64,000 nucleotides of DNA from a virus (lineage: Duplodnaviria > Caudoviricetes). The stretch lies in the IMG/VR virus record IMGVR_UViG_2897081166_000001, positions 17,293-81,292 of that record, one strand, 5' to 3'. The notes beneath the pieces are model-generated. The model worked only from the letters and a program-made list of their open reading frames with translations, was not told the DNA's origin and ran no database searches. Made by a program: the position numbers and the translations under genes. Positions 9,140 through 57,242 of this stretch are shown in pieces. Each line of letters opens with the position of its first letter. The stretch's first letter is position 1.

Positions 9140-9152
9140 TTGGATGCTTGAC

Positions 9153-9257
9153 TGGCGCGAGTAAGCGCCCCATGGCGTGCCGGACCCGGTAACAGGTGGC
9201 CTCCTCGTCGGGTCTCCGGCACAGGTGAGCCCCCTCCGCTGAGTGGAGGGGGCTCAC
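9153..9257 (+). ncRNA. Candidate small RNA divergent from gntR (possibly gntR-DTE-like)
   Basis: GATGCT -10-like, three consecutive hairpins, the last terminator-like. Confidence 0.55.
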
Positions 9258-9326
9258 TGCGATTCTGCATCAGCCGATCACGGGCCCGGGGCCCGCCGGC
9301 CAAAGTGGGGGCGGCCCCACCCATTT

Positions 9327-9652
<326 letters not shown>

Positions 9653-26408: not shown

Positions 26409-26806
26409 GCGCCCAGCCCACCCGCATCCAGCGTCGCCGCACGAAGGGCTGGCGTGCTCCCGAGGGGGCCGCCTACGTCGGACGTGGCACGGCGTTCGGG
26501 AACCCATGGGCCGTCGTGCAGACGACCAGCGGCACCGGATGGGCAGTGCAGTGGGCAGGACACGCCAACCAGCACCGCCCCCTCGGCCTCGCCAGTTTCG
26601 TCCCGGCGGACGACCAGCGCGACGCCCACACCCTCGCCGTCGAGCTGTACGAGATGTGGGTCCACGCCCACCCGCAGCTCCTCGAACGCGCCCGACGCGA
26701 CCTCGCAGGCCGGGACCTCATGTGCTGGTGCGCCGACACCCTGCCCTGCCACATCGACCCCCTGCTCGCCATCGCCAACCAGCCACACCAGGAGACCAGC
26801 GCATGA
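26405..26806 (+). CDS. DUF4326-like protein
   Basis: RIQRRRTKGWR, YVGRGTAFGNP, LAGRDLMCWC, CH. Confidence 0.85.
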   Translation: MSAQPTRIQRRRTKGWRAPEGAAYVGRGTAFGNPWAVVQTTSGTGWAVQWAGHANQHRPLGLASFVPADDQRDAHTLAVELYEMWVHAHPQLLERARRDLAGRDLMCWCADTLPCHIDPLLAIANQPHQETSA

Positions 26807-28176
26807 CCACCAGCATGTGGGACACCCCCATCGACGACCCGACCACCCTGCCCAGCACCCCCGCCGACTTCGAAGCCGAGAAGATCCTCGTCGCCACCGC
26901 CATGGCCCGCCCCACCACCGTCGACGAACTCGCCGCCACCGGCTTCGACCCCGCCGACATCGTCGACGACCGCTACCGGTGGGTGTGGTACGCCGTCGAA
27001 GAACTCGCCACCACCTTCCAGGCCGGCGAAATCCGCTACATCCCCATCGCCCGACAGCTTCAGGCATGGCGCGCCGACGGCCGCATCCTCAGCATCCCCT
27101 TCACCGAAGACCAGCTTCGCGACCTGTACAACCACGCCCAGCCCGGATCCGAGAGCTACTTCGCCGACCGCATCACCCGGCAAGCCATCGCGGCCCGCAT
27201 GGTCGCCCACGGCCACGCCTCCATCCTCCGCGGCAACTCCCCGGCCTTCGACCCCGACCAAGACGTCGCCGCGGCGCAGGCCGAACTCGACGGCGTCATC
27301 CGCGCCACCACCGGCACCGAAACCACCCTCGTCGGCGACCTCCTCGCCGGCGTCTTCGAACGAGCCACCACCCCACCCACCAACGACGACAAGATCCCCA
27401 CCGGGTTCATCGACCTCGACGGGCTCCTCTGCGGCGGATGGGCCCCCGGCCAGATGGTTGTCGTCGGCGCCCGACCCGCCATGGGCAAAACCACCTTCGG
27501 CCTCGGCCTTGCAAGGGCCGCCGCCATCACCCACAACATCCCCACCCTGTTCGAATCCCTCGAAATGGGTGAAGCCGAACTCGGCAACAGCATCGTCTCC
27601 GCCGAAGCCCGCGTCGCCCTCCACCACATCAAGCAAGGCGTCGTCGGCGAAGACGCCGACGGCACCCGCCGCATGGCCACCCGAGCCCCGGCCATCAAAG
27701 CCGCCCCGCTCCACATCAGCGACGAAGCGAACCTGTCCATGGCCACCCTCCGCGGCCGGGTCCGCAACCTCGTCCGCACCGAAGGGCTCCGGCTCGTCGT
27801 CGTCGACTACCTGCAGCTCATGCAGGCGCCCCGGGCCGAGTCCCGGCAGGTCGCCGTCTCGGAGATGTCCCGGCAGCTGAAGCTCCTCGCGAAGGAGTTC
27901 CAGATCACAGTGATCGTCCTCGCCCAGCTCAACCGCGGACCCGAGCAGCGCACCGAGAAGAAGCCCATGGTGTCGGACCTGCGGGAGTCCGGGGCGATCG
28001 AGCAGGACGCCGACATCGTGATCCTGCTCCACCGCGAAGACGCCTACGAGAAGGAATCCCCCCGGGCCGGTGAAGCCGACCTCATTGTGGGCAAGCACCG
28101 CGGGGGACCCACGGCAACGATCACCACCGCGTTCCAGGGCCACTACGCCCGCTTCGTCGACATGGCCCAGACCTGA
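26803..28176 (+). CDS. dnaB: Replicative DNA helicase
   Basis: GARPAMGKT, VVDYLQL, AQLNR, DLRESGAIEQDAD. Confidence 0.95.
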   Translation: MTTSMWDTPIDDPTTLPSTPADFEAEKILVATAMARPTTVDELAATGFDPADIVDDRYRWVWYAVEELATTFQAGEIRYIPIARQLQAWRADGRILSIPFTEDQLRDLYNHAQPGSESYFADRITRQAIAARMVAHGHASILRGNSPAFDPDQDVAAAQAELDGVIRATTGTETTLVGDLLAGVFERATTPPTNDDKIPTGFIDLDGLLCGGWAPGQMVVVGARPAMGKTTFGLGLARAAAITHNIPTLFESLEMGEAELGNSIVSAEARVALHHIKQGVVGEDADGTRRMATRAPAIKAAPLHISDEANLSMATLRGRVRNLVRTEGLRLVVVDYLQLMQAPRAESRQVAVSEMSRQLKLLAKEFQITVIVLAQLNRGPEQRTEKKPMVSDLRESGAIEQDADIVILLHREDAYEKESPRAGEADLIVGKHRGGPTATITTAFQGHYARFVDMAQT

Positions 28177-34473: not shown

Positions 34474-34881
34474 TCAGCGGGGGAGCGCCTCGTCGAGGTA
34501 CTCCTGCACGGGCCCGAACAGCCCATACGGCACGTACTCCGGGATGTCGCCGTGTCCGATCCACGCCACCGCGGCGATCTCCTCCGCGTCCCCGACGATC
34601 GCGTCACCGGAGATCAGCTCGCACGCCACATACGTCATCGGCACCCCCGTCTGCGGGTGCACCCGGTCACCGAGGACCCGGACGGCCTTCACCTCCAGGC
34701 CCACCTCCTCCGCCGTCTCCCGCACCGCCGCCTGCTCCGGGGACTCCCCGGCCTCGATGCCGCCGCCGGGGAACGCCCACAGCAGCCTCCCCTCCCGCTG
34801 CTGCCGCCGGATCATCAACACCTTGCCGCCGTCGACGATGATCGCCGTGGAGACGGGGGGCTGCACACTCTGCTCGGTCAC
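34474..34881 (-). CDS. NUDIX hydrolase
   Basis: FPGGGIEAGESPEQAAVRETAEEVGL: canonical Nudix box. Confidence 0.93.
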   Translation of the reverse strand: MTEQSVQPPVSTAIIVDGGKVLMIRRQQREGRLLWAFPGGGIEAGESPEQAAVRETAEEVGLEVKAVRVLGDRVHPQTGVPMTYVACELISGDAIVGDAEEIAAVAWIGHGDIPEYVPYGLFGPVQEYLDEALPR

Positions 34882-35516
34882 GCTGCCTCCAGGGCACTCA
34901 GGATCGGCGGGAAGATGTTCTCGGCGGGGATGAAACGGGTCAGGTTGGCGAGCGGCACCCAGGCGACGTCCATGTTCTCGACCGCGTCCAGGTTGGTGGC
35001 CTCGCCGGCGAGATAGTCGCAGAGCACGTAGCTGGCCAGCACTCCGGTTTTTGGGTGGACCCGGGTGCCGAGTTCCTCGCGGACTGCGACGTGCACCCCG
35101 GTCTCCGCGTGGGTTTCCTGCACCGCCACCGCGGCGGCGGCGGCGCCCGGCTTGCACATCCCGGCCGGAAACTGCCAGGTGAGCGCATCGTCGCCGCGCC
35201 GGCACACCAGGAGCACCTCGGTTCCGCGCAGCACCACGGCGATAGCGACCCGCAACGCCTGAGCCTCAGCCGGGGCAGATTCCTCGGGCGGGCGGGACAG
35301 AAGGGTGAAACGTCTACGCACGTGCTCGTTGGCCCTCTCGTAGGTGGTGTCGAGGGCCTGCTGCATCTCGGTGCGCGGCACGATCTCCGGGTTCCTGTGC
35401 CAGCCGGCGACCGTGCGAACCGCGACCCCGAGCTTCGCGGCGAAGCCCTCGTTCGTCATGCGGAGCGCGGCCTGCAAGGCGCAGGCGGTGCGGCCGGTCC
35501 ACGTGGTGACGTTCAC
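34878..35516 (-). CDS. XRE HTH-NUDIX fusion with a degenerate Nudix box
   Basis: LRMTNEGFAAKLGVAVRTVAGW; FPAGMCKPGAAAAAVAVQETHAETGV. Confidence 0.88.
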   Translation of the reverse strand: MNVTTWTGRTACALQAALRMTNEGFAAKLGVAVRTVAGWHRNPEIVPRTEMQQALDTTYERANEHVRRRFTLLSRPPEESAPAEAQALRVAIAVVLRGTEVLLVCRRGDDALTWQFPAGMCKPGAAAAAVAVQETHAETGVHVAVREELGTRVHPKTGVLASYVLCDYLAGEATNLDAVENMDVAWVPLANLTRFIPAENIFPPILSALEAA

Positions 35517-37651: not shown

Positions 37652-39007
37652 GTGACGACCAGCCCGCCCCAGGTGAACGGCCACCGCAGCCGGATCCCCG
37701 TGATCACGGACTGGCAGACGCTCCTAGCGCCTGCCGAGGAGCCGGCCGTCACCACCACCCCCGAACCCGACCCGGTCGCCCCTGCGGTCGACCTCGTGGC
37801 CCAGGCGAAGGCTGACGCGATCCGCACCAAGGCCTACGCCGACGCCGAAGAGCAGCGCATCCGCGCCGAGGCCGAGGCCAAGGCCGCCGAGCTCAAGGCT
37901 GCCGAGGAAGCCCGGAAGCTGAAGCTCGCCAACGACAAAGCCGCAGCCCGCGCCCTTGAGGAGCAGGCCGCGCGGGACGCCCGGATCGCCGAGTCCGAGC
38001 GGAAGCGGGCCGAGGCCGAGCGCGGCCAGCAGGAAGACGAGCGCGCCCACCAGGAGCAGCAGCAGACCGCCGCCGCTGCCGAGGCCGACGTTGCCAAGGC
38101 GGCCAAGACGTGGCGCAGGTACGCGATCTTCTTCTACACCGTCTGCGCGGTCGTCGCCCTGCCGGTCCAGATCGCCGCGTTCTGGGACCGCGACGCACCC
38201 TGGCTCGTCATCGCCCCGCTCATGCTCGAAGGCGCCGCCCTGGTCGTCACCAAGGGTGCCGCTGCAGCCGTCGCCGCCGGGCGCCCGCACTGGCACTACC
38301 GCACCGTCGCCTGGGCGTTCGCGTTCATCGCCGCCGGGATCAACCTCAAGCACGGGCTCGACGCTTTCGACCCCGCCACCGCGATCGGCACCGCGTTCGC
38401 CTCACTCGCCGGCCCCGGAGTGTGGGACCTCCACGAGCACGGTCGGATCCGCCGACGTGATGGTGTGCCCACCCGGCGGGAGCGGCGCGCGGCCAAGAAG
38501 ACGGCCGAGCGGGAAGCCGCCGAGCAGACCCAGGCGCGCCTGGTCGAAGCCGAGCGGCAGGCCCACCTGGAGAACGCCGCACGGAACGCCGCCGAACGCC
38601 TGGACGCCGACCGCAAGCAGATGTTCCCGAGAGTCCACGAGCACGCCCTGAAGCTCGCTGCGGACCTCGGCGAGACGGCCATCACCCCGGCCATTTGGAA
38701 GCAGGCGAAGCTCGACGTCGACGGTGCGCTGCCGGGGGAGTCCGACGAGATCCTCCGCATGCGGAACACGGCTGCGGCGAAGGTCGAAGCGGCCCGCCTC
38801 AACAAGCCCGTCAGCACCCTCAGCAAGACCACGAACGCGCAGCGTGCCGCCCATCTCCCCCCTGCCTCCACCAAGCCCCGCCCGAAGCCGATTCCGCCCC
38901 GCCGCACCCGCGGCGACAGCACCCCGTTTCACCCCGCCGCGAAGCGTCTCGCAGCCGACACCGCACGCCGCTCCATGACTGTCCGAATCAACGCCGAGGA
39001 GAACTGA
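37652..39007 (+). CDS. Spd-like membrane protein (coiled coil plus about 4 TM helices)
   Basis: Hydrophobic block flanked by charged coiled coils; upstream of traA/traB. Confidence 0.7.
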   Translation: MTTSPPQVNGHRSRIPVITDWQTLLAPAEEPAVTTTPEPDPVAPAVDLVAQAKADAIRTKAYADAEEQRIRAEAEAKAAELKAAEEARKLKLANDKAAARALEEQAARDARIAESERKRAEAERGQQEDERAHQEQQQTAAAAEADVAKAAKTWRRYAIFFYTVCAVVALPVQIAAFWDRDAPWLVIAPLMLEGAALVVTKGAAAAVAAGRPHWHYRTVAWAFAFIAAGINLKHGLDAFDPATAIGTAFASLAGPGVWDLHEHGRIRRRDGVPTRRERRAAKKTAEREAAEQTQARLVEAERQAHLENAARNAAERLDADRKQMFPRVHEHALKLAADLGETAITPAIWKQAKLDVDGALPGESDEILRMRNTAAAKVEAARLNKPVSTLSKTTNAQRAAHLPPASTKPRPKPIPPRRTRGDSTPFHPAAKRLAADTARRSMTVRINAEEN

Positions 39008-39876: not shown

Positions 39877-41880
39877 GTGGCTGACAGCCAGAAGGCCGAC
39901 CTGTGGAAGGCCATCAAGCACCCCCGCATGAGGCCCTGGCTGACAGTCGCCGCCGAGGTCCCCGCCACCTTCGCCTCCCACCACTATTGGGGCGACTCCG
40001 TACCCGCCGCGATCGGCCTCACCGTCGCCGCAGGAGTACTCACCGCCGCAACATGGTGGGCAGGCGAGGGGACACGGCCCGGCCGGCGTATCCACGCCAC
40101 CCTGTCCACCGGCCTCGGCACCTCCTACCTCGTCGTCGGCACCGCCGTCGGCCCGTTCGACCCGGCGCTCGCCTCCACCCTCGTCATCGGCGGCGCCGTC
40201 GCCGCCGGGTCGTGGAACATCCGCCAAGCCCTCCGCGTCAACGTCGACCCGCAGAAGGAAGGCGGCAACGCCGAGACCGGTGTCCTCGTCAAGGCCATTG
40301 GTGACGCCAAGGTCGCCCTCCGCGGCAAGCCGAAGGTCGAACCCAACAAGGTCACCGTGCCCCTCCAACTGGCCGCCGGGCAGGTTACCTCCGACGACCT
40401 CGGCAACCGCATCAAGCACATCGCCGGCGAACTCGGTGTCTCCCCGACCAGCATCCGCGTCATCCCCGACCCCGACGACGCCGCCCGCGCCACCCTCGTC
40501 GTCGTCCCCAAGGACGAACTCAAAACCAGCACCATCTGGCCCGGCCCGTCCAACCCCGGCGGCAGCATCACCGACCCGATCGCCATCGGGATCTACGAGG
40601 ACGGCGAAGTGGCGGTGCTGTGGTTCCCCTTCGACTCCCAGTCCAGGCGGAACGCCACGCACTTCCTGGCCGCCGGGATGAACGGCTCCGCCAAGTCCAC
40701 CGGCATCAGCGTCGCCATGGCGGAAGTGCTGACCAAGCCCGACGCCATCGTCTGGGCGGTCGACCCCTCCAAGGGGCAGCAGACGTTCGCCCCGTTCCTG
40801 CCGTACCTCGACTGGGTCGAGATGACCGAAGCCGGGGGTAACGAGATGATTGACGCCCTGCCGCAGGTCATCACCGCCCGCGCGAACGAGCTCGGCCGCC
40901 ACGGCTTCAAGAACTGGACTCCGCAGGCCCACGATCAGCTCGGCATGCCGTACATGATCGTGTGGATCGAGGAAGCGGCCAAGTTCTTCCGCAACGGCAC
41001 CGAAATGGAAGGCCTCGTCATGGAGGCCCGGTCCGCCGGGATCAGCGTCATCATCAGCCTCCAACGCCCCTCCGCCACCAGCATGCCCACCGACGTCCGC
41101 GAGCAGCTCGGCGGCGTCCTCTGCTTCGGCGTCAAAGGCTCCACCACCGCCGACATGGCCCTCCCCGACGACGTCCGCGACGCCGGCGCCCGCCCCGAAG
41201 CCTGGGAAAACCGCAAACCCGGCTACGCCTACCTCGTCGCCCCCGGCGTCGACGAAGACCGCTACGCCACCCCCCTGCGCACCTACCTCATCGACGACGA
41301 CCAGATCACCGGGGCCCTCGCCATCCTGCCCCGCACCCCCATCGACCCCGTCACCGCCGCAGCAGCCGGTGACGCCTACGCCAACCGCACCCGATACGAC
41401 GCTGACACCCCGCTGACCAGCGGTGACAGCCCACGACAGGAGACCGTCACCATGACCAAGGACGACGCCCAGGCCGCCGAGAAGGCGCTACTGGAGAAGC
41501 AAGTCGACCGCGAGATCGACGCCATGGTCGGCGACGACCCCGACAACGACGGGTTCGTACCCGACGTCGACGCCGACCAGGAGATCGCCCCGGTGAGCGA
41601 AGTGTGGTCGTTCGGGCAGGCCCAAGCCCCCGTCGAGGAGAAAACGCCGGAGGCCGGCATGGACGCGCTGATGGTGATGCTCGCCGAGTTCCGGGCGGAA
41701 GAGCGGGAGTTCATCGGCCCGAAAGACTTCGGCCCGTTCGGGAAGGGGCAGCGCATCGGAAGGTCCCGTTCCTGGGTGTCAATGGCTCTCGGGGACCTGT
41801 CAGATGCCGGGATTCACCTCCAGGAGACGGAGCAGGCGGGGGTCTATCGGCTGCTGTACCCGGAGCTGGCGGAGGTCTAG
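39877..41880 (+). CDS. traB: TraB conjugative dsDNA translocase (FtsK/SpoIIIE family)
   Basis: N-terminal TM helices, Walker A variant GMNGSAKS, VDPSKG, Walker B IVWIEE, ARSAGIS..QRP, C-terminal wHTH. Confidence 0.9.
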   Translation: MADSQKADLWKAIKHPRMRPWLTVAAEVPATFASHHYWGDSVPAAIGLTVAAGVLTAATWWAGEGTRPGRRIHATLSTGLGTSYLVVGTAVGPFDPALASTLVIGGAVAAGSWNIRQALRVNVDPQKEGGNAETGVLVKAIGDAKVALRGKPKVEPNKVTVPLQLAAGQVTSDDLGNRIKHIAGELGVSPTSIRVIPDPDDAARATLVVVPKDELKTSTIWPGPSNPGGSITDPIAIGIYEDGEVAVLWFPFDSQSRRNATHFLAAGMNGSAKSTGISVAMAEVLTKPDAIVWAVDPSKGQQTFAPFLPYLDWVEMTEAGGNEMIDALPQVITARANELGRHGFKNWTPQAHDQLGMPYMIVWIEEAAKFFRNGTEMEGLVMEARSAGISVIISLQRPSATSMPTDVREQLGGVLCFGVKGSTTADMALPDDVRDAGARPEAWENRKPGYAYLVAPGVDEDRYATPLRTYLIDDDQITGALAILPRTPIDPVTAAAAGDAYANRTRYDADTPLTSGDSPRQETVTMTKDDAQAAEKALLEKQVDREIDAMVGDDPDNDGFVPDVDADQEIAPVSEVWSFGQAQAPVEEKTPEAGMDALMVMLAEFRAEEREFIGPKDFGPFGKGQRIGRSRSWVSMALGDLSDAGIHLQETEQAGVYRLLYPELAEV

Positions 41881-41886
41881 GGGGCG

Positions 41887-42057
41887 GGGGTGTCAGCGCT
41901 GACACCCCTCCTGACCTGCGGTGACATCAGATTCACACCAGATTTTCTTGATCAGCTGTCAAGACGGGTGTGAATCAGGGGTGTCACCGCCCCTGGCGGC
42001 TCGATCTCTATAGGTCATGCGCGTGCGCGCGCGTGACTGACGGCGGACTGACATCAC
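41887..42057. repeat. clt-like TGACA(C/T)C repeat cluster
   Basis: About 6-8 direct and inverted copies right after the traB stop, including palindrome GGGGTGTCAGCGCTGACACCCC. Confidence 0.6.
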
Positions 42058-42087
42058 CGGATTTCCAACCAACCCAAAAGCTAGGAA

Positions 42088-42927
42088 ATGGTTCAAATGG
42101 TGCAACTCTTTGGTCTGTCGTCGGGCGTGCCGCGATGCGTTGCCGCGACGAGCGAGAGCCCCTGCCGTGAAGCTGCCGCCATCGCCACTCCGGTGGCGCT
42201 GTGCGAGACACACCGGCTGAGGATCGCGCTCGACCTCACCCCAGAGGTGCTTGGCCGCGCCTTGGTACGCCGAGCCACTCCTCCCGCCCCAGGCAGGCCG
42301 GCACCGCGGAGCATGGCGAGCATTGCCACCTCAGCCCAGCCGGCAGAGTTCATCGGAGGCATAGCGGCCGGGCGGCATGCACCCGTTGTCTACTTTCTGC
42401 TGAACGGCAGTCGAGTAAAGATCGGCTACACCCGGTCCTTGGTCACGCGCCTTCGAGCGCTTGCCCTTGGAGAATCGGCGGTTGTCCTGCTTCTCAGCGG
42501 CGGTCGACAACTTGAGAGCGCCCTGCATGCAGAGTTCGCGGCGACCAGGGTCAAGGGCACCGAGTGGTTCGAGATCACCGCGCCGCTCCTGCGCTACATC
42601 GGCGGCAGGCTTGCGCGCCCCGCCGTCGCCATCCAGCCGGACCTGGACCTGGATCGGGACGAGCCCCGTGAGCCGCAGGACGTACCGGCGCGGCCCCGCA
42701 TGTCCGAAGCGCGCCAGGCGTTGCTGAGCCTCGTGAAGCAGGCCAAGGCAGAGGGGTGGGACCACATAGGGCCCCGTCACGTCTGGGGGCAGCATCGGCA
42801 CACCCTGCGCCGGAGCCGACCGTGGGTGAGCGCTGAACTTGCACGACTAGCTGATGAAGGCGTTCTTTGCCGCACAGACGAAGCAGGCGTCTACACCTTC
42901 CGCGACGACGATTTGGAGACAGCATGA
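42088..42927 (+). CDS. GIY-YIG (T5orf172/MUG113-like) nuclease with a TraB-like C-terminal wHTH
   Basis: VVYFL..VKIGYT..R..E..LH..F..EWF; C-terminal RSRPWVS..L..L..G..AGVY. Confidence 0.82.
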   Translation: MVQMVQLFGLSSGVPRCVAATSESPCREAAAIATPVALCETHRLRIALDLTPEVLGRALVRRATPPAPGRPAPRSMASIATSAQPAEFIGGIAAGRHAPVVYFLLNGSRVKIGYTRSLVTRLRALALGESAVVLLLSGGRQLESALHAEFAATRVKGTEWFEITAPLLRYIGGRLARPAVAIQPDLDLDRDEPREPQDVPARPRMSEARQALLSLVKQAKAEGWDHIGPRHVWGQHRHTLRRSRPWVSAELARLADEGVLCRTDEAGVYTFRDDDLETA

Positions 42928-43355
42928 AAAGCCCCGAAACGGACGGAGGTCGGGCCAAGGTACTTGCTGCAGCACTCCGCACCTGGACCACCGTCGACAA
43001 CGACCCCGAACCCCCTGTCGCACGCCTGGAAATCCGCTACCCACCCCACTGGGCGTTCACCTCCACCAACCCCATCACCGCAAGGCAACAGAAGCGGCTC
43101 CTCGCGTTCCTCCGTGACGACCTCGCCGAGAACCGGCCCGGATACTCCACCCCTGAACGCGCCGCCGCGATCATCCACGGGCTCATCACCGAACACGCCG
43201 CCGCCGGCCGCACCCGCATCACCACCGCGGACCTCGCCGAAGCCGCACCCCGGATCGGCCGGTCCCGTACCTGGATCGCCGCCCACGTCACCGACCTCAT
43301 CGACGGCGGTGTGCTTCGCGAGACAAGACGCCCCGACACCTTCCGCATCAACTAG
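42924..43355 (+). CDS. Protein with a TraB-like C-terminal wHTH
   Basis: RIGRSRTWIAAHVTDLIDGGVLRET; ATGA coupling. Confidence 0.75.
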   Translation: MKSPETDGGRAKVLAAALRTWTTVDNDPEPPVARLEIRYPPHWAFTSTNPITARQQKRLLAFLRDDLAENRPGYSTPERAAAIIHGLITEHAAAGRTRITTADLAEAAPRIGRSRTWIAAHVTDLIDGGVLRETRRPDTFRIN

Positions 43356-43364
43356 GAGACCACC

Positions 43365-43847
43365 GTGCAGCTGCCCGAGCAGCCCGTTGCCGGGCAGCCC
43401 GATCCCACCGACCGCGCCGAAGTCCGCAAGCTCGCCCACGCCGTCGAGACCGTCCTCCTGGAGGAAATGGCCACCTACCACCGCGACACCACCCCGCTCC
43501 CCGCGGTGGGTGCTGCACCGCCTGTGCCGCAGCCAGGTCAGCCCCCGATGTCGCAGTGGGCGACCGACGCCAGCGGGGTCCTCAAGGCTGTGTCCGTGGC
43601 GTCCCTGCCGATCGGCGGGGCCCTGTGGATCGTCGGCCAGGTCGACCCGCTGACCTTGGGCATCATCCTCGGCTCGCCGGCCGCTGTTGCCTTGGCTGTG
43701 GCCCGACTCGTCGCGAAGGTCAAGGACGCCAACCAGGCTGTACCGCAGCCGGTCACCAACCACTTCCACGGCACCGTCCACCACGACGAGCGCATCGTCA
43801 CCAGCACCACCCGCGGCCTCATCGCGAACAACCGGAACCGAAACTGA
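43365..43847 (+). CDS. Membrane protein (2 TM, Spd-like context)
   Basis: AGGAG RBS, hydrophobic pair. Confidence 0.7.
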   Translation: MQLPEQPVAGQPDPTDRAEVRKLAHAVETVLLEEMATYHRDTTPLPAVGAAPPVPQPGQPPMSQWATDASGVLKAVSVASLPIGGALWIVGQVDPLTLGIILGSPAAVALAVARLVAKVKDANQAVPQPVTNHFHGTVHHDERIVTSTTRGLIANNRNRN

Positions 43848-49881: not shown

Positions 49882-50049
49882 ATGCCAGGCCGACGACACA
49901 CCGGATTCAAGAGCCGGGCCCAATGGCGCTACTTCTTCGCCAACCCCAAACTCCGCCGCTACGCCCGATCCAAAGCCCACGCCACCAAGGGCGGAAAGAT
50001 CACCCGCTACCGGCGGCTCCCCGCCCGCAAGGGCATCCGCCGCCGCTAA
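49882..50049 (+). CDS. Small highly basic protein (55 aa)
   Basis: Perfect AAGGAGGTG RBS; Arg/Lys-rich, no acidic residues. Confidence 0.7.
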   Translation: MPGRRHTGFKSRAQWRYFFANPKLRRYARSKAHATKGGKITRYRRLPARKGIRRR

Positions 50050-51740
50050 GCCGCCACCCCAGGCCGCGAGCCCCCGCCCACCGGCTCCTCCTCATCCGGA
50101 TCCTCGGACTGGCCCTCGTCGAAGCCCGGCTCGACCCCATCGTCCGGCTGCTCCTCGCCCGGGCCCTCGGTGCGCGCGCTGAACGGGTCCCCGGCCGGAG
50201 TCTGCGTCTTGTCGTCCCTGATGCGCCGCACCTCCGCCAACACCTCCGCGTCATCCCAGGCCGGCTCCCGCATCTTCACCTTCATGAACGTGCTGATCGC
50301 CCCCGCCGCGTCCAGCAGCGACAAGGTGCGCGCCGTTGCCTCCGGGTCCGGCTGCACCGCCTGCGGCCACGACGCGGTCAACTCCACCGCCGGGTCCACA
50401 CCCTTCGCCCCGCAGTGCCTCACGTCGACCTGCATCAGCGTCGTCAGGTGCTCCAGCAGTGCTGGCCGCTGATACAAGATCTTCAGCCCTCGGGTGGTCA
50501 GGCTCTCCTCCTTGCGGGCCGCGACCTCCGTCGCCGTCACCGCAACCGACCCCTCCTCCCCATACGACTGGGCCGAGTAGCCAGCCGACGCCAAGATCTG
50601 CCGGCGCAGAGCCTTCGCGGTCCGCTCGTGATCCTCCACCCGGATCGCGAACTGCACCTCAGTGATCGAATCCTTGAGCGACGACTCGCTGCCCAGGAAC
50701 CCGGACACCGACACGAGCAGCTCCCTGTCCAAGTCGAACGAGGAACCACCGCCCGGCCCGCTGGTGTCGAGCATCTCCTGCGGCACCACCACCCGGGCCT
50801 TACCCAGGCGCAGATCACGCATCCACGACGACCAGGTCTCGTCGAGCCCGTCCATCATCGGCTCGATGCCCGCATAGTCGGAGCGTCCCAGCGGGGCGGT
50901 GTCCGGCACCCCGTCCCAGATTCTGTTGGGCAGCACGTTCGGCATGTGCGTGATCAGCAGCCGGTCAACGCCCGTCGCCTGCCGGCCGTGGGAGTCGGTG
51001 CGGCTCGCCAGGAACTCGGTCTCGTGGTGGTCGCTGAACTCCATCAGCATGCCGAGGGTGCCGACATCGCCCCTGTACACCCCGTACTCGATCAGCCCCG
51101 GGGTGTGGTACTCCAACAGCCGCCACACACCCCCGCCGTCATCCAGCGGCTCCAACTCCCGCCACACCGTCGCCGCGGCAAGCATGCCCCAACGCCACTC
51201 CGGGACCACCGCGTTCGCCTGGATCACATCCGACCACGGGCGAGGGCGCAGCGAGGTGTCCCACACAGCCCGCAGGTACACGTTCGACAAGCCGGCGGCC
51301 AACTCGGCCGCCTCCCGCATCTTCGCGTGGCCCCGGTCGTCGAGGTACCGGCCGATCTGCGCCTGCGTCGACGCGGCCGTCGCACTGTCCGTCGAATCCA
51401 GATCGACAGTCACCTGCGGCACCTCGGCCCACAGGAGGTTCGCGGACATTTCCGCAATGTCCCCGCCGATCGGGACGTGCAGCTTCGCCGCCTGCTGGCC
51501 TGGTGACGGGTCCTGCCCCCAGAACATGCGCAGCTCATCACCGCCCACCGCCCGCCTCCGGTCCACGTCGAAGTACGCGCGCGCCGTCCCGTTCCGGGTG
51601 TAGGCGGCCGTGCCCCCGTACACCTGTGCCAGATGCCCGGTGTCCCCGGCGTACCAGGCCCGCCACATGTCCATGTCGGCATGCGGGATCTCCAGCTTCG
51701 GCGGGGGCCACGGGGTGTTCCCGGACGGAGGCAGCGGCAT
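50046..51740 (-). CDS. Portal protein (SPP1/A118-like)
   Basis: KLHVP, LGRSDY, LDETWSSWMRDLRLGK, TATEV; directly follows terminase. Confidence 0.9.
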   Translation of the reverse strand: MPLPPSGNTPWPPPKLEIPHADMDMWRAWYAGDTGHLAQVYGGTAAYTRNGTARAYFDVDRRRAVGGDELRMFWGQDPSPGQQAAKLHVPIGGDIAEMSANLLWAEVPQVTVDLDSTDSATAASTQAQIGRYLDDRGHAKMREAAELAAGLSNVYLRAVWDTSLRPRPWSDVIQANAVVPEWRWGMLAAATVWRELEPLDDGGGVWRLLEYHTPGLIEYGVYRGDVGTLGMLMEFSDHHETEFLASRTDSHGRQATGVDRLLITHMPNVLPNRIWDGVPDTAPLGRSDYAGIEPMMDGLDETWSSWMRDLRLGKARVVVPQEMLDTSGPGGGSSFDLDRELLVSVSGFLGSESSLKDSITEVQFAIRVEDHERTAKALRRQILASAGYSAQSYGEEGSVAVTATEVAARKEESLTTRGLKILYQRPALLEHLTTLMQVDVRHCGAKGVDPAVELTASWPQAVQPDPEATARTLSLLDAAGAISTFMKVKMREPAWDDAEVLAEVRRIRDDKTQTPAGDPFSARTEGPGEEQPDDGVEPGFDEGQSEDPDEEEPVGGGSRPGVAA

Positions 51741-51755
51741 GACAGATCCTTTCGA

Positions 51756-53006
51756 TCAGGCGGCCAAGGCAAGCTGGCGCTGCCACAAGGCACGAGTAGT
51801 GAAGATCGCGTAGCGGAGGGCGTCGACACCATGGTCGGCAACCTTGATGGGCTTGTCCTCACCCTTCTCGGCAGCCTTGTCATCCCAGGCGTAGCCCGGC
51901 ATCTCGCCGATCAGCGCCTTGCAGGAGGAGTGGACGACGAGCTTGCCCGCAGAGAGAAGGCTCGACATGGTGCGGATGCCATCCAGCACTGCGTTGTTCG
52001 CCGGGGTCGGGGTGAGCCTGTCGCGCCGCAACTGGGCAGAGAACGAAGCCGCCGAAGGGTCCACCGTCACGAACTGAGGGCGGACCGGGCCAATGCCGGC
52101 GACGTTCGACAGCCAACCCCGCATGCGCTCCGAATACTCAATGTCCGTGAGCTGGCGCCGCTGCTGGCGGCCGTCGTACCGCCACTCGGAAGCCGCGTAC
52201 AGTCGGCGGTCCCGGCCAAGGCCGAGGAGGGTGGCGTGGAACGGGTTGGTCTGGCCATAGTCCACGCCAACGCTGATCCACTTGGCGATCTCGGGCAGCG
52301 TGTTGACGACGTGCTTCTCCTCATCCCACATGTCGAAGATCGAACCTTCGGCAGCGATCCACTCTCCGAGGACGAAGCGGCGGTACCAGAGGCCCACGAA
52401 CTCATTCTTGATCGAGTTCTTGTAGTCGTCGCCCAGGGACGGGTTGTCGTCCAGCACGTAGTGCCAGTACCGGATGCCCAACTCGTCACGGCGGTCGATG
52501 AAGTCCCGCTTTAGCCAGTGGGCCGGCGACCCGGGATTGGTGGAGGCAAAGAGCTTCGCCCCCGGCACGCTCATGCGCCCCAGCAACTGTGTCCAGAACT
52601 CTTGCGGTACGAGCGTCGCCTCGTCGACGAGGGCACCCGCACAGGTCATGCCTCGCAGGCGCTCCTCCGCCCTGCTGTCATTCGCCCCGATGACCCGGAC
52701 CTGCCGACCCAGGATGGTCGCGGTCGGCGCACCCCGCGTGTAGTGCACGTGCTGCGCCAGCGGGCCGAAGAGGTTCGGGTCCTGGAGAGGAATGAAGACG
52801 TTCGACGCCGCGGTGTTGGTGGTCTTCGCGATGACCGCGAGCTCCCCACCGGAGGGTGCCGTTGCCACATACATGATCCACCGCAGCAGCGTGGAGATAG
52901 TTTTGCCAGCACGGATTGACCCGGAAGCGATGTTGATTCGTGCGTTGCTGTTCGCGACGAAGTCCAACTGCTTCCGGGACATCCCGAGATCGGTGGCGCT
53001 CAGCAC
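51756..53006 (-). CDS. terL: Terminase large subunit (PBSX-like)
   Basis: GSIRAGKT, VDEAT, STNPGSPAHW, GVDYG, DHGVDALRY; GTG start inferred. Confidence 0.93.
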   Translation of the reverse strand: MLSATDLGMSRKQLDFVANSNARINIASGSIRAGKTISTLLRWIMYVATAPSGGELAVIAKTTNTAASNVFIPLQDPNLFGPLAQHVHYTRGAPTATILGRQVRVIGANDSRAEERLRGMTCAGALVDEATLVPQEFWTQLLGRMSVPGAKLFASTNPGSPAHWLKRDFIDRRDELGIRYWHYVLDDNPSLGDDYKNSIKNEFVGLWYRRFVLGEWIAAEGSIFDMWDEEKHVVNTLPEIAKWISVGVDYGQTNPFHATLLGLGRDRRLYAASEWRYDGRQQRRQLTDIEYSERMRGWLSNVAGIGPVRPQFVTVDPSAASFSAQLRRDRLTPTPANNAVLDGIRTMSSLLSAGKLVVHSSCKALIGEMPGYAWDDKAAEKGEDKPIKVADHGVDALRYAIFTTRALWQRQLALAA

Positions 53007-53875
53007 AGCAGGCCCAGCAGAAGGCGGAACCGCGTTCCGCATCGAGCGTGCTTGGTCAGGTTGCAGTGACTGCACGCCATGGCCAAGTTCCACCAGTGGT
53101 CCGTGCCGCCCTTGCTGAGAGGGAACTGGTGGTCAACCTGCATCGCAGCGGTACGGCCCCCGCAGTACGCGCAGGGGTCAGTCGCGATCGCTGCTCGATA
53201 GGCGGTCGATATAGCCTTATCGATTTTGGTCATGCCTCGCGCTGCTTGGTACCTGCGTCGCGCAGTCTTTGCCTTGAACGGAATCGGGTCGTCCTGGTAG
53301 TCCTGGCGCTGCCGATGCAACCGACACAGGCCGCGGTACTGAGCGTGCTTGCTGCACCCGTCGGCAGCGCATTCCCCGCCTTTGGCAGTCTTCAGAGGCT
53401 GCTCGATGGGTGTGCCCGTCAGAACGCGGCGTCGATGAAAGTGGCACATACCGACCGCCCCGTAGGGGCGCTCGCAACCCTCGACCGCGCACGGTCGATT
53501 GACCCTCCGGGACCGGACGACGTGGGGGTCGCCGTGCTGACGCCAGCGCTCGTAGTGCTTCGTGCACCAACCGCGCTTGCGGGAGGGCTCGTCGCAATCT
53601 TCGATCGCGCACGCTTGGCCAAGGTTCGCGATCTTGAGGGGGGCCGCCATGGAGAGGCCGTTGCGCTGCCGCTGCCAGTGAAGCGAGCAGAGCCCTTTGC
53701 CTGCAACGCTGCGCTCGCAATCCTCTGCGGTACAGGTGAGGCCAGCCCGTTCCTGCCGCAACGGTCCAGCGGTCAGAGGGATGCCCTTCCTCTGTCGATA
53801 GAGGTGGGTGTCGCAGAGCCCGTGGCCCTTGTGCGGTCGTTCGCATTCGGGCACGTCGCAGGTACGCTTGGTCAT
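53000..53875 (-). CDS. HNH endonuclease with tandem C-x4-C...C-x2-H zinc-finger repeats
   Basis: Five CxxxxC..GxCxxH repeats, then CAYCG..VDHQFPLSKGG..NLAMACSHCN. Confidence 0.88.
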   Translation of the reverse strand: MTKRTCDVPECERPHKGHGLCDTHLYRQRKGIPLTAGPLRQERAGLTCTAEDCERSVAGKGLCSLHWQRQRNGLSMAAPLKIANLGQACAIEDCDEPSRKRGWCTKHYERWRQHGDPHVVRSRRVNRPCAVEGCERPYGAVGMCHFHRRRVLTGTPIEQPLKTAKGGECAADGCSKHAQYRGLCRLHRQRQDYQDDPIPFKAKTARRRYQAARGMTKIDKAISTAYRAAIATDPCAYCGGRTAAMQVDHQFPLSKGGTDHWWNLAMACSHCNLTKHARCGTRFRLLLGLLC

Positions 53876-55418: not shown

Positions 55419-55574
55419 CCCTCACCACCCCCTTGATCCTTGGAATCTAAGGACATCTTGCGCTATGACCTTTGATTGTGCAGCATTGTGGTGGGTTCAG
55501 GGTTAACATCTGGGCTAACACGCCAGCGGACAAGGCGCCGCCAACGCGTGCAGGCCGCCCAAGGAGGCACCGAG
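55419..55574. promoter_or_regulatory. Divergent late promoter region
   Basis: AT-richer gap between divergent structural operons; TCCTTGGAATCTAAGGA inverted repeat. Confidence 0.5.
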
Positions 55575-56372
55575 ATGACGACCCCCGCCCCCGCAGCACC
55601 CGAGGGAACCACGGCAGACCCCGGCACCCAGCCGGCCACCCCGCCCAACCCCCCGGCCGCACCAGCCGCACCGGCCCAGCCAGAGCCGGCCGCACCCACC
55701 ACCCCCTCCGAGCCGGTCACCGAACCGAAGCCCAGCGAACCCAAGGCCAAGGCGCCCAAGTTCGAAGGCGACTTCGACCCCGCCCGGTTCGAAAAGCTCG
55801 TCGAGAACCTCCGCGGCGACGTCGCAGCCGAGAAGGCCAAGCGCGAAGCCCTGGAACAGAAGGCCAAGGACGACCAGGACACCCTCATGAAGCGGGTGGC
55901 CAAGGCGTTCGGCCTGGAGACCGACGAGGCCAAGCCGCCCACCCCCGAAGAGCTCGCCCAGCAGCTGGAAGAGGCGCAGACCCGGACCAAGGCGTCCGAC
56001 GATCGCGCCCGCCAGCGAGAGGTCGAACTCGCCGTCTACAAGACGGCGTCCAGGCATGGCGGCGACCCCGACGCACTGCTCGACTCACGCACCTTCGCCA
56101 ACGCCATCTCGAAGCTCGACCCGACCGCGGCCGACTTCGACGACCAGGTCGGCAAGGCAGTGAAGACGGCAGTCGACAGCAACTCCAAGCTCGCGGCCAA
56201 GGCGCCGGGGAAGGAGCCGGAGCCCACCCCCGCAGGTGGCGCACCGATGGACGGGGCCGGTGGGAGCAAGAAGCAGCTGGGCGAGGCGGATCTAGCTCGC
56301 ATGACTCCCAAGCAGATCAACCAGGCCATGGCCGAAGGGCGGTTCGACCGCTACCTGGGCAGGGCCGGATAA
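55575..56372 (+). CDS. Capsid scaffolding protein
   Basis: AAGGAGG RBS, Pro-rich N-terminus, coiled coil, ALLDSR; upstream of capsid. Confidence 0.8.
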   Translation: MTTPAPAAPEGTTADPGTQPATPPNPPAAPAAPAQPEPAAPTTPSEPVTEPKPSEPKAKAPKFEGDFDPARFEKLVENLRGDVAAEKAKREALEQKAKDDQDTLMKRVAKAFGLETDEAKPPTPEELAQQLEEAQTRTKASDDRARQREVELAVYKTASRHGGDPDALLDSRTFANAISKLDPTAADFDDQVGKAVKTAVDSNSKLAAKAPGKEPEPTPAGGAPMDGAGGSKKQLGEADLARMTPKQINQAMAEGRFDRYLGRAG

Positions 56373-56381
56373 GGACCCACC

Positions 56382-57242
56382 ATGTCGGTCGCGCTGTTCA
56401 AGCCCCAGATCTGGTCTGCCCAGATCCTGGCCGGTCTGGACGAGGCACTCGTCTACGCGCAGCCCCAGATCGTCAACCGCGACTACGAGGGTGAGATCAC
56501 CTCGCAGGGCCAGTCGGTGCGCATCGTCACCATTGGCGACCCGTCGATCTTCCCGTACAAGTCCGGCGACACGATCAACTACGAGGACATCGACACCGCC
56601 GGGCTGGACCTGCCCATCGACCAGGGCGACGCGTTCGCGTTCAAGCTCGACGACGTCGACAAGGCGCAGGTCTCCCTCAACCCGATGGCGAAGACCACCC
56701 AGCGCGCAGCCAGGAAGCTCGCCGCCCAGGCCGACCGGTACGTCGCCTCCCTGTACACCGGGGTCGCCCCGTCGAACGTCGTCGGCTCTTCCGGCTCCCC
56801 GGTCAACATCGTGTCCAATCCGAAGGACGCCTGGGACAAGGTCCTCATCCCGCTCCGCACCAAGCTGAACAGGGCGAACGTCCCCGGCATGGACCGGTAC
56901 GTCGTCGTATCCCCGGAGTTCACCGGGGCGCTCCTCCAGGACGACCGGTTCGTCCGCGTCGACGCCTCCGGCAGCGAACAGGGCCTCCGCAACGGCATCG
57001 TCGGCCGCGCCGCCGGCTTCGACGTCCTGGAGTCCAACGTCACCCCGAACCCGTCGTCGGACACTCAGGTCATCCAGGCCGGTTACCCCGGTGCCCTCAC
57101 CTTCGTGGACCAGATCCTGGAGACCGAGGCGCTGCGACTGGAGTCGACGATCGCCGACGCCGTCCGTGGCCTGCACGTGTACGGCGCGAAGCTCATCAGG
57201 CCCGAGGGCATCGCCGTCGCCTACGTCGACCCGTCCGCCTGA
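56382..57242 (+). CDS. Major capsid protein
   Basis: FKPQIWSA, NRDYEGEI..GQSVRI, RGLHVYGAK. Confidence 0.92.
   Translation: MSVALFKPQIWSAQILAGLDEALVYAQPQIVNRDYEGEITSQGQSVRIVTIGDPSIFPYKSGDTINYEDIDTAGLDLPIDQGDAFAFKLDDVDKAQVSLNPMAKTTQRAARKLAAQADRYVASLYTGVAPSNVVGSSGSPVNIVSNPKDAWDKVLIPLRTKLNRANVPGMDRYVVVSPEFTGALLQDDRFVRVDASGSEQGLRNGIVGRAAGFDVLESNVTPNPSSDTQVIQAGYPGALTFVDQILETEALRLESTIADAVRGLHVYGAKLIRPEGIAVAYVDPSA

What the first reader, a model, noticed from the sequence alone, without database searches (positions are those of the whole stretch)
39877..43355. TraB, a GIY-YIG nuclease and a third protein share one winged-helix domain around a clt-like locus
Seen: three consecutive proteins end in the same domain. 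TraB: FIGPKDF..RIGRSRSWVSMALGDLSDAG..ETEQAGVY. Nuclease 42088-42927: HIGPRHV..RRSRPWVSAELARLADEG..RTDEAGVY. ORF 42924-43355: ITTADL..RIGRSRTWIAAHVTDLIDGG..ETRRPDTF. A TGACAYC repeat cluster sits between the first two genes. Known: the C-terminal wHTH of Streptomyces TraB recognises short clt repeats, and TraB moves dsDNA with no known relaxase. Inference: a clt-directed nuclease and a clt-binding decoy or regulator could process the substrate, gate transfer, or attack competing elements. I do not recall this trio being described.
Basis: partly seen in the sequence, partly recalled or inferred. Interest (0 to 1): 0.9.

Follow-up and report, generated by a model that had tools for sequence, protein, structure and literature searches.

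The report
Mobile nuclease borrowing TraB's DNA reader
In a Streptomyces phage-plasmid, the DNA-transfer motor TraB, a sporadically present cutting enzyme and a small conserved protein all carry the same DNA-reading domain around the transfer-site repeats; the cutter looks like a selfish, movable gene aimed at that site rather than a part of the transfer machine.

Summary
Observation confirmed. TraB (39877-41880), ORF2 (42088-42927) and ORF3 (42924-43355) all end in a TraB-type winged helix: ORF2 matches the TraB HMM at E 3e-14 and ORF3 at E 1.7e-9. Five TGACAYC copies lie in 167 bp after traB, against 0.05 expected. TGACACC is the experimentally bound clt repeat of pWTY27.

The element is a tailed phage-plasmid of the pCQ3/pCQ4 kind.

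ORF3 follows traB plus repeats in 10 of 10 related elements. It has 72 database clusters, and every source name given is 'hypothetical protein'.

ORF2 is a T5orf172/MUG113 (GIY-YIG clan) nuclease. It is present at this site in only 2 of those 10 elements and is frameshifted in one. It has low GC3 and was inserted exactly before the ORF3 start. Its winged helix groups with a foreign TraB (pRL1 type), not the resident one.

Best reading: ORF2 is a homing-endonuclease-like cassette aimed at clt repeats, analogous to ICP1 Odn. ORF3 is a conserved soluble repeat-binding accessory. No cleavage or binding was tested.

This scan reached the same reading before on other DNA. New variant of a known kind.

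The parts
39877..41880 (+). traB, an FtsK-like dsDNA translocase of 667 aa
   Evidence: NF041214 plasmid_TraB at 830 bits, above the 800 cut-off. phrog_24831 at E 1.2e-90. GC3 0.90.
41632..41877 (+). C-terminal winged helix of TraB (the clt-reading domain)
   Evidence: My wHTH HMM matches residues 591-671 of the open frame.
41781..41841 (+). Stretch of the traB 3' end where the window shares states with the other nuclease carrier (Met instead of Gly in the helix; QETEQ instead of SETD-x)
   Evidence: Site patterns. Last ~100 nt: 13 sites where window = L011 and differs from L009, against 11 of the opposite pattern. Preceding 400 nt: 6 against 54. Fisher p = 4e-5.
41881..42087 (.). clt-like intergenic region. 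TGACAYC copies lie at 41889(-), 41900(+), 41922(+), 41980(-) and 42049(+), plus 41775(-) inside traB. A perfect palindrome lies at 41887-41908.
   Evidence: A homologous repeat-rich spacer follows traB in all relatives. The motif equals the pWTY27 clt repeat DC1.
41930..41976 (.). Inverted repeat GATTCACACC / GGTGTGAATC. It is found only in the two nuclease-carrying elements, where nuclease-free relatives have TTCTGACAC / GTGTCAGAA.
   Evidence: (I9) and alignment A2. TTCACAC counts are 1+1 in the window and in L011, and 0 in all seven nuclease-free spacers counted.
42003..42037 (+). Core GATCTCTATAGGTCATGCGCGTGCGCGCGCGTGAC, conserved in all relatives. Possibly a promoter or operator, or part of clt.
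   Evidence: Invariant columns in alignment A2. Similar strings occur in L015, L039 and L040. Function was not tested, and the sigma-70 scan found nothing.
42088..42927 (+). ORF2, a chimeric nuclease of 279 aa (likely start 42097, giving 276 aa)
   Evidence: GC3 0.74. It is an insertion relative to L009, L010, L012, L013 and pCQ4.
42136..42216 (+). N-terminal Cys17/Cys27/Cys40/His43 motif of ORF2, a putative zinc finger
   Evidence: Conserved in 7 of 8 rows of alignment A3. The model confidence here is below 50, so the fold is unknown. Zn-finger DNA-binding modules are typical of T5orf172 homing nucleases (section 23 of PMC10448857).
42391..42594 (+). T5orf172/MUG113 (GIY-YIG clan) nuclease domain of ORF2
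   Evidence: PF13455 at E 1.2e-8 and PF10544 at E 2.3e-6. Invariant residues are Y102, K111-I112-G113, R121, E143, H147 and E159-W160-F161. pLDDT over this stretch runs from the 60s to 90, mostly above 80.
42655..42900 (+). TraB-type winged helix of ORF2
   Evidence: NF041214 positions 552-632, E 3e-14. Winged-helix fold, Z 7.4-9.7. On the tree it is sister to the pRL1 TraB, not to the resident TraB.
42924..43355 (+). ORF3, a 143-aa stand-alone TraB-type winged-helix protein. Its start overlaps the ORF2 stop (ATGA).
   Evidence: NF041214 positions 564-632, E 1.7e-9. It lies directly downstream of traB plus repeats in 10 of 10 related elements. It has 72 clusters, every source name given being 'hypothetical protein', and no Pfam domain.
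43143..43349 (+). Winged helix of ORF3
   Evidence: The model shows H77-93, H101-105, H108-111, H115-127 and two strands.
43365..43847 (+). ORF4, a small hydrophobic protein conserved after ORF3 (context; Spd-like by position only)
   Evidence: phrog_19266 at E 7e-57. Homologues follow ORF3 in L009-L013 and lie near nuclease homologues in L002, L018 and L020.

Best explanation
The locus has three layers.

(1) TraB and the TGACAYC cluster behind it are the transfer motor and its cis site (clt) of a Streptomyces phage-plasmid.

(2) ORF3 is a conserved, soluble protein whose winged helix descends from the resident TraB lineage. Its promoter region lies inside the repeat field. It most likely binds the same repeats, either as a regulator of the downstream operon or as an accessory or gatekeeper of TraB loading.

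(3) ORF2 is not part of that machine. It is a free-standing, homing-endonuclease-like gene. It joins a T5orf172/GIY-YIG-clan nuclease with a family-typical N-terminal Cys/His module to a winged helix captured from a foreign, pRL1-like TraB whose own clt also consists of CTGACACC repeats.

Proposed mechanism for ORF2:
- The captured domain anchors the nuclease on clt repeats of related elements that lack the gene.
- The nuclease cuts nearby.
- Recombinational repair from the carrier copies in the nuclease gene, together with its variant spacer and the last codons of traB.
- Carriers tolerate the nuclease because their own repeats are altered.

Shown: the domain homologies, the strict linkage of ORF3, the sporadic presence and exact insertion point of ORF2, the foreign origin of its winged helix, and the sequence mosaic.

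Inferred: DNA binding to TGACACC, cleavage, homing and self-immunity.
For: Domains:
- The TraB HMM hits all three proteins.
- Pfam T5orf172/MUG113 matches ORF2.
- ORF2's C-terminal domain has a winged-helix fold.

clt:
- Five TGACAYC copies lie in 167 bp, against 0.05 expected.
- TGACAC counts in the spacer after traB of nuclease-free relatives are 8, 9, 8, 8, 5, 2, 4, 9 and 12, against a window background of 0.33 per kb.
- pWTY27 TraA binds four TGACACC repeats in a clt needed for transfer.

ORF3:
- It is adjacent to traB in 10 of 10 elements.
- It was found in 3 of 401 sampled Streptomyces genomes, each time next to traB.
- Its winged helices form one clade (100/100) that attaches to the resident TraB clade.

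ORF2 as a mobile cassette:
- It is present at this site in 2 of 10 elements and split by a frameshift in L011/L014.
- A third copy, P0003, is N-terminally truncated.
- Its GC3 is 0.74, against 0.90 for traB.
- The insertion lies exactly between the last repeat and the ORF3 start.
- The window is 90-99% identical to nuclease-free L009 across most of traB (71-83% in one mosaic stretch) and 93-95% across ORF3, but only 59-66% in the spacer.
- Carrier-specific states extend into the last ~100 nt of traB (Fisher p = 4e-5).
- Family members sit at other positions in other elements and carry other C-termini.
- 18 of 152 family proteins screened (147 of the top 150 representatives plus P0001-P0005) carry a TraB-type winged helix. 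At least 2 gains or losses are forced on the tree.

Targeting:
- ORF2's winged helices form a clade (98/96) that is sister to the pRL1 TraB (90/79). The spacer after pRL1 traB has four CTGACACC.
- Carriers have fewer TGACAC copies, 3 and 1. In L011 the copies carry single changes: TAACAC, GTGTTA and TGGCAC.

Precedent: ICP1 Odn is a T5orf172 nuclease with a RepA_N domain captured from its satellite. It cuts the satellite origin at the iterons, and the iterons mutate to escape (passages). Domain shuffling is also reported in T5orf172 homing genes.
Against: - No cleavage, binding or homing was tested.
- Only two carriers could be examined in context. They differ by 33% in protein and about 35% in the spacer, so 'repeat erosion' rests on n = 2. 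The Mann-Whitney test gives p = 0.04 and the rows are related.
- Nuclease-free pCQ4 also has only 2 TGACAC copies.
- The window keeps 6 TGACA cores and a perfect GGTGTCAGCGCTGACACC palindrome, so self-immunity is unexplained if TGACAC alone were the target.
- In the last 100 nt of traB the site pattern is mixed (13 against 11), not a clean tract. TraB is mosaic elsewhere for unrelated reasons, at columns 601-900.
- The RSRxW core of the helix is shared by TraBs of many lineages, so a shared domain does not prove a shared DNA word.
- The nuclease fold itself was not confirmed structurally. Foldseek found no match at E <= 0.001, and the VIA list was filled by the winged helix.
- ORF3's role is inferred from position and ancestry only. 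Its N-terminal 70 residues match nothing.
Confidence: 0.55

Rival explanations
1. ORF2 is mainly a weapon between mobile elements, like Odn, and not a homing gene. It destroys incoming or co-resident TraB elements whose clt carries TGACACC repeats (exclusion or competition). Its spread is only a side effect.
For: - It has the same architecture logic as Odn.
- Its winged helix comes from a foreign TraB lineage.
- TGACACC-type clt occurs in several distinct plasmid lineages that would all be targets: pWTY27, pRL1, and pCQ4, L015, G076 and G284.
- Streptomyces strains carry 5-10 conjugative elements each (passage in PMC9513070).
Against: - A useful weapon should be kept, yet 1 of 2 carriers seen in context is frameshifted and another copy is truncated.
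- It sits exactly beside a clt of the targeted type, with co-varying flanks, as homing genes do.
- The two readings are not exclusive.
Confidence: 0.22
2. ORF2 is a domesticated, non-cutting DNA-binding protein, like PLE CapR. Together with ORF3 it represses or tunes the operon downstream of clt, or traB itself.
For: - Domestication of T5orf172 homing genes into repressors is reported (title and abstract of PMC8096241 in the listing; mention in section 23 of PMC10448857).
- ORF2 overlaps the ORF3 start and lies behind the conserved core 42003-42037.
Against: - The residues expected for catalysis (Tyr102, Arg121, His147, Glu159) are invariant in 8 of 8 family members aligned.
- The gene is sporadic and decaying, not fixed.
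- Relatives manage without it.
Confidence: 0.07
3. ORF2 is a working part of DNA transfer or of phage packaging. It nicks or linearises the element at clt for TraB, or makes ends for the terminase.
For: - It is adjacent to traB and clt.
- A homologue lies two genes upstream of a terminase gene in plasmid NZ_CP109172.
- Another homologue lies just upstream of traB in L015.
Against: - It is absent at this site from 8 of 10 related elements whose TraB is intact in all but L013 (two frames) and the two contig-cut G076/G284 loci; TraB identity to the window is 91-93% in L009-L013, 73% in pCQ4 and 69% in L015.
- The fusion was found in 1 of 401 sampled genomes.
- TraB of pSVH1 moves unprocessed double-stranded DNA (passages).
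- The terminase here is 8.8 kb away on the other strand.
Confidence: 0.05

Closest known systems
Odn (Gp88) of Vibrio phage ICP1, the origin-directed nuclease (Barth et al. 2021, PMC8263062; passages read)
   Same: A T5orf172 nuclease domain of a homing-gene family is joined to a DNA-binding domain copied from the protein that reads another mobile element's essential repeated cis site. Escape occurs through changes in the repeats and in the reader domain.
   Different: - The captured domain here is a C-terminal TraB/FtsK-gamma-type winged helix, not an N-terminal RepA_N.
- The presumed target is a transfer site (clt), not a replication origin.
- The gene sits next to a site of the targeted kind in its own element.
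- The host is an actinomycete phage-plasmid.
- No activity was tested here.
T5orf172 homing endonuclease genes of phages (Barth, Dunham and Seed 2023, PMC10448857; abstract and section 23 read)
   Same: - Sporadic genes lying between conserved genes.
- Modular DNA-binding parts, including Zn fingers.
- Domain swapping.
- Location at boundaries of recombination.
   Different: Those carry CapR, DUF723 or DUF4397 Zn-finger arrays. A TraB-type winged helix is not among the domains named in the section I read. The supplements are closed and may list more.
TraB-clt systems of Streptomyces plasmids: pSVH1, and pWTY27 TraA with its TGACACC repeats (PMC4447253 passages; PMC3583192 abstract and passages)
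   Same: - The translocase has a C-terminal DNA-reading domain.
- A repeat field starts at or just after the end of the tra gene.
- The 7-bp word is the same as in pWTY27.
   Different: No second or third protein with the same reading domain is mentioned in the passages I read. The element here is also a tailed phage.
Free-standing GIY-YIG homing endonucleases such as I-TevI, I-BmoI and the T4 Seg proteins (recalled; I-BmoI abstracts seen in the listing)
   Same: A nuclease domain is tethered to a separate DNA-binding domain. These genes show presence/absence between relatives and co-conversion of flanks.
   Different: The nuclease subfamily differs (T5orf172/MUG113), and the binding domain is borrowed from a conjugation motor.
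'Short TraB' of 139 aa noted by Choufa et al. 2022 (PMC9513070; passage read)
   Same: These are small proteins detected with TraB profiles in Streptomyces mobile elements.
   Different: Those sit with an ATP/GTP-binding protein and ParM and were set aside as truncated TraB. I did not see their sequences, so their relation to ORF3 is unknown.

Membership tests
TraB (NCBIfam NF041214, plasmid transfer protein TraB) | Full-length match above the curated cut-off | tested here: met
   TraB scores 830 bits against the 800 cut-off, over profile positions 2-638. ORF2 (52 bits) and ORF3 (37 bits) match only positions 552-632 and 564-632. They share the domain but are not TraB.
T5orf172 / MUG113 (Pfam GIY-YIG clan) | Domain match above the gathering score | tested here: met
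   PF13455 scores 35.9 bits (cut-off 22.3). PF10544 scores 28.5 bits (cut-off 20).
T5orf172 / MUG113 (Pfam GIY-YIG clan) | Catalytic residues (Tyr, Arg, His, metal-binding Glu) present | tested here: inconclusive
   Y102, R121, H147 and E159 are invariant in 8 of 8 rows of A3. Their equivalence to the catalytic residues of solved enzymes is my reading of the motif, not an alignment to a solved structure. The PDB profile search found 0 hits.
T5orf172 / MUG113 (Pfam GIY-YIG clan) | Nuclease activity | not testable with these tools
   Needs a cleavage assay.
Free-standing homing endonuclease gene | Sporadic presence at one site among close relatives, with a precise insertion | tested here: met
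   Present in 2 of 10 related elements. The junction lies exactly at the ORF3 start codon.
Free-standing homing endonuclease gene | Co-conversion of flanking sequence with the gene | tested here: inconclusive
   The spacer is 59-66% identical, against 90-99% over most of the flanks. Carrier-specific states occur in the last 100 nt of traB (13:11 against 6:54, p = 4e-5). Only two carriers were available and the tract is mixed.
Free-standing homing endonuclease gene | Cleavage of the gene-less allele and super-Mendelian inheritance | not testable with these tools
   Needs crosses and cleavage assays.
[quoted passage not shown] | Cluster of short repeats at or next to the 3' end of the tra gene | tested here: met
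   The word is the same as the pWTY27 DC1 repeat.
[quoted passage not shown] | Required in cis for transfer and bound by the Tra protein | not testable with these tools
   Needs mating assays and EMSA.
Odn-like chimeric nuclease | T5orf172 nuclease fused to a domain homologous to another element's cis-site reader | tested here: met
   The tree places the domain with a foreign TraB.
Odn-like chimeric nuclease | Cleavage depends on the repeats read by the donor protein | not testable with these tools
   Needs an in vitro assay with and without the repeats.
Winged-helix fold (TraB / FtsK-gamma type) | Three-helix bundle plus a beta wing in the predicted structure | tested here: met
   ORF2 residues 201-279: Z 7.4-9.7, 62-83 residues aligned, rmsd mostly 1.9-4.1 Å (up to 5.6), to many winged-helix domains. 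FtsK gamma itself is not among the 50 rows shown.

The most novel reading that the evidence does not exclude
A three-way conflict over one DNA address.

- clt-directed nucleases that steal TraB's reading domain force TraB's recognition helix and the clt repeats to change together. Here that would be the Gly-to-Met and SETD-to-QETEQ changes, together with altered repeats, in nuclease carriers.
- The conserved stand-alone winged-helix protein ORF3 would be a dedicated clt-occupying factor.
- ORF3 would shield the site from such nucleases, or switch a phage-plasmid between TraB export and capsid packaging.

That would make the clt an arms-race hotspot comparable to the PLE origin.
Probability: 0.15. 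Interest if true: 0.85.

Novelty: new variant of a known kind. Interest (0 to 1): 0.62.

Why it matters
How Streptomyces TraB systems choose and protect their DNA is known only for TraB and its repeats. Two further proteins use the same reading domain at the same site.

One is a family of at least 72 sequence clusters that always follows traB in pCQ3/pCQ4-like phage-plasmids and has no assigned function. It is an obvious knockout and EMSA target.

The other extends the Odn principle to a new phylum, a new captured domain and a new kind of target (a conjugative transfer site). In that principle, a selfish nuclease acquires the address domain of another element's essential cis-site reader.

If cleavage is confirmed, it gives:
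- a natural example of programmable targeting by domain capture;
- a possible cause of clt and TraB specificity divergence;
- a tool to cut plasmids at clt.

Tried and rejected
Scans of viral contigs with P0002 and P0004 found nothing. Equal contig lengths suggest that P0002 and P0016, and P0003 and P0035, share a contig, but I could not read the DNA.
- Structural confirmation of the nuclease fold. Foldseek on the whole ORF2 model gave no match at E <= 0.001. The VIA wide list was filled by the winged helix. The PDB profile search gave 0 hits.
- ORF3's N-terminal domain. There was no Pfam, PHROG (beyond the winged helix) or PADLOC hit, and Foldseek gave only weak winged-helix regulator matches.
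- Defence-system membership. PADLOC gave only a 14-bit hit for ORF2. Rejected.
- Small terminase role for ORF3. Rejected because the large terminase is 8.4 kb away on the other strand, and in pCQ4 another small ORF directly precedes the terminase.
- Phage collection. Only nuclease-domain hits in Gordonia phages, none with the winged helix.
- Plasmid collection. ORF3 is found only in pCQ3 and pCQ4. The fusion is not found.
- The sigma-70 promoter scan of 41700-43500 found nothing.
- Papers on pCQ3/pCQ4: none relevant found. Vogelmann et al. 2011 is not in the library. I cite it only through passages of other papers.
- Supplements of all papers are closed. Those of PMC10448857 and PMC9513070 may list domains or short TraB sequences that bear on novelty.

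Full report
**What is there.** The window is 64 kb of an 81-kb virus record. Its GC content is about 0.69. The record carries:
- a tyrosine integrase, a GntR regulator, a DnaB helicase and a NUDIX protein;
- a large terminase, a portal and a major capsid protein;
- a full TraB, at 830 bits on NF041214 against a cut-off of 800.

Its traB is 80.6% identical in DNA to that of the circular plasmids pCQ3 and pCQ4, which also carry terminase genes. The setting is therefore a Streptomyces phage-plasmid with a TraB conjugation module.

- The TraB profile matches ORF2 residues 190-271 (E 3e-14) and ORF3 residues 74-142 (E 1.7e-9), both on its last 70-80 positions.
- BLASTP supports this, with E values of 2e-7 and 6e-8.
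- The AlphaFold model of ORF2 has a confident C-terminal domain at 201-279. It aligns to many winged-helix domains at Z 7.4-9.7.
- ORF2 residues 102-169 match Pfam MUG113 and T5orf172 above their gathering scores. [quoted passage not shown]
- Five TGACAYC copies lie in 167 bp behind traB, where 0.05 are expected. No shuffle of 300 came near that.
- The likely start of ORF2 is 42097, not 42088.
- A conserved Cys/Cys/Cys/His motif supports the long form over the 204-aa form found in the database.

**The repeats are a credible clt.** In pWTY27, a 175-bp clt that starts inside the tra gene is required for transfer. It contains four TGACACC repeats that are protected by the Tra protein (abstract and passages of PMC3583192). 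The same word fills the spacer after traB in every relative I read. TGACAC counts are:

| Element | TGACAC copies |
|---|---|
| L009, L010, L012, L013 | 8-9 |
| L015 | 5 |
| pRL1 | 4 |
| G284 (L040) | 9 |
| G076 (L039) | 12 |
| pCQ4 | 2 (5 TGACA cores) |

The background in the window is 0.33 per kb.

**ORF3 is a fixed partner of TraB.**
- An ORF3 homologue with the TraB-type winged helix starts about 160-270 bp after traB in 10 of 10 elements: the window, L009, L010, L011/L014, L012, L013, pCQ4, L015, G076 and G284.
- It is not present after the distant pRL1 traB.
- In 401 sampled Streptomyces genomes it was found in 3, each time beside traB.
- Among 72,556 plasmid records it occurs only in pCQ3 and pCQ4.
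- The large protein database holds 72 clusters. Every source name given is 'hypothetical protein', and none has a Pfam domain.
- On a tree of 34 winged-helix domains, the ORF3 domains form one clade (100/100) that joins the resident TraB clade.
- The N-terminal 70 residues (a helix, two strands, a helix) match nothing.

I infer a soluble protein that reads the same repeats. Its start is preceded by a strongly conserved core (42003-42037) flanked by repeats, so a regulator or gatekeeper at clt is the most economical reading. That is inference only.

**ORF2 is a visitor.**
- Among the ten elements it is present at this site only in the window and in L011/L014. There it is split into two frames.
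- A third copy in the database (P0003) lacks its N-terminal half.
- Its GC3 is 0.74, against 0.90 for traB and 0.88-0.89 for ORF4.
- The alignment of spacers shows the insertion exactly between the last repeat and the ORF3 start codon. It replaces ORF3's ribosome-binding region.
- The window is 90-99% identical to nuclease-free L009 across most of traB (71-83% in one mosaic stretch, columns 601-900) and 93-95% across ORF3. In the spacer it is only 59-66% identical to every relative.
- In the last ~100 nt of traB, the window shares 13 states with the other carrier against L009, and 11 the other way. In the 400 nt before that the counts are 6 and 54 (Fisher p = 4e-5).
- The carrier-specific states include a Gly-to-Met change in the presumed recognition helix and QETEQ in place of SETD-x in the wing.

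This is what co-conversion with a homing gene would leave. However, the tract is mixed, there are only two carriers, and TraB is mosaic elsewhere too.

**The nuclease family is modular.**
- Homologues occur in Streptomyces and Nocardiopsis genomes, plasmids and soil metagenomes. They sit at other positions: upstream of traB in L015, beside ORF4 homologues in L002 and L020 (and 5 kb from one in L018), and near FtsK-like genes in L008, L019 and L050.
- None of the 24 nuclease ORFs I could check in those loci has a TraB-type winged helix.
- In the exhaustive search, 1637 representatives match at E <= 0.001. I screened 152 family proteins, made up of 147 of the 150 best representatives plus P0001-P0005; 18 of them carry a TraB-type winged helix by my HMM.
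- On a poorly resolved tree of the nuclease domain, this trait needs 6 changes, at least 2 of them forced by supported branches.
- The fusion was seen in 1 of 401 sampled genomes.

**Where the ORF2 winged helix came from.** The ORF2-type domains of the window, L011, P0002, P0003 and P0004 form a clade (98/96). That clade is sister to the TraB of the linear plasmid pRL1 (90/79), not to the resident TraB clade. P0005 falls elsewhere. The spacer after pRL1 traB holds four CTGACACC. The donor lineage therefore most likely read the same word as the resident TraB, which makes clt repeats the likely address of ORF2.

The carriers have fewer intact words, 3 and 1 TGACAC. In L011 the words carry single changes. 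Both carriers share GATTCACACC / GGTGTGAATC where the others have TTCTGACAC / GTGTCAGAA. This fits self-protection. It rests on two related cases, though, and the window keeps an intact palindromic pair of words.

**Comparison with what is known.**
- The closest case is Odn of phage ICP1. It is a T5orf172 nuclease, related to the phage's homing genes, whose N-terminal domain is 42% identical to the RepA_N domain of its satellite PLE. It cuts the satellite origin only if the iterons are present, and iteron changes give escape (passages).
- Barth et al. 2023 describe T5orf172 homing genes with shuffled Zn-finger DNA-binding modules (abstract and section 23).
- Here the captured domain, the target type and the host group are different, so I class it as a new variant of a known kind.
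- I found no paper holding TraB + GIY-YIG + Streptomyces, or T5orf172 + Streptomyces. The TraB papers I read in passages do not mention a second protein with the TraB reading domain.
- Choufa et al. 2022 note 139-aa 'short TraB' proteins in another gene context.
- Earlier notes of this scan reached the same Odn-like reading on other genomes. I saw them after forming mine, and they are not independent evidence.

**Verdict.** The under-appreciated part is ORF3, a conserved stand-alone TraB-type reader of unknown role. Nothing about binding or cutting has been shown.

Noticed in passing
window 42003-42037: A 35-bp core, GATCTCTATAGGTCATGCGCGTGCGCGCGCGTGAC, sits in the middle of the repeat field. 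It is almost invariant in all relatives, including pCQ4, L015 and G076, while the repeats around it vary. It may be a promoter or operator for ORF3, or a separate cis site.
   Followed up: partly
window 39877-41880, alignment columns 601-900 of traB: The traB gene is mosaic among close relatives. In this stretch the window matches L011 and L012 (91-96%) but only 71-85% with L009, L010 and L013. This is independent of the nuclease.
   Followed up: partly
L013:5814-8427: In this related viral contig, both traB and the ORF3 homologue are read in two frames. They may be frameshifted or carry sequencing errors.
   Followed up: no
window 43365-43847 and L002, L018, L020: ORF4 (phrog_19266, E 7e-57) is a small hydrophobic protein. 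Homologues lie next to nuclease-family genes in L002 and L020, and about 5 kb from one in L018, in otherwise different elements. This suggests a second preferred neighbourhood of the nuclease family.
   Followed up: no
L015:9929-10756: In Streptomyces olivoverticillatus, a nuclease-family homologue without a TraB-type winged helix lies directly upstream of traB. The ORF3 homologue is in its usual place downstream.
   Followed up: partly
P0142 (151 aa): A 151-aa protein whose C-terminal 70 residues resemble the ORF2-type winged helix (48% identity), with no nuclease-domain match listed. It is possibly a remnant or another stand-alone reader.
   Followed up: no
window 8373-10910, 26374-28176, 34878-35516, 50046-53093, 55476-57242: Element backbone: a GntR regulator and tyrosine integrase, a DnaB-like helicase, a NUDIX protein, a portal and large terminase on the minus strand, and a scaffold-like protein and major capsid protein.
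   Followed up: partly
window 37652-39007: A 451-aa protein upstream of traB has a coiled-coil-like, charged N-terminal half and a weak DUF2637 match (21.6 bits, just under the cut-off). It is 79% identical in L014. A DUF2637 protein also precedes the FtsK-like genes in plasmid NZ_CP109172.
   Followed up: no
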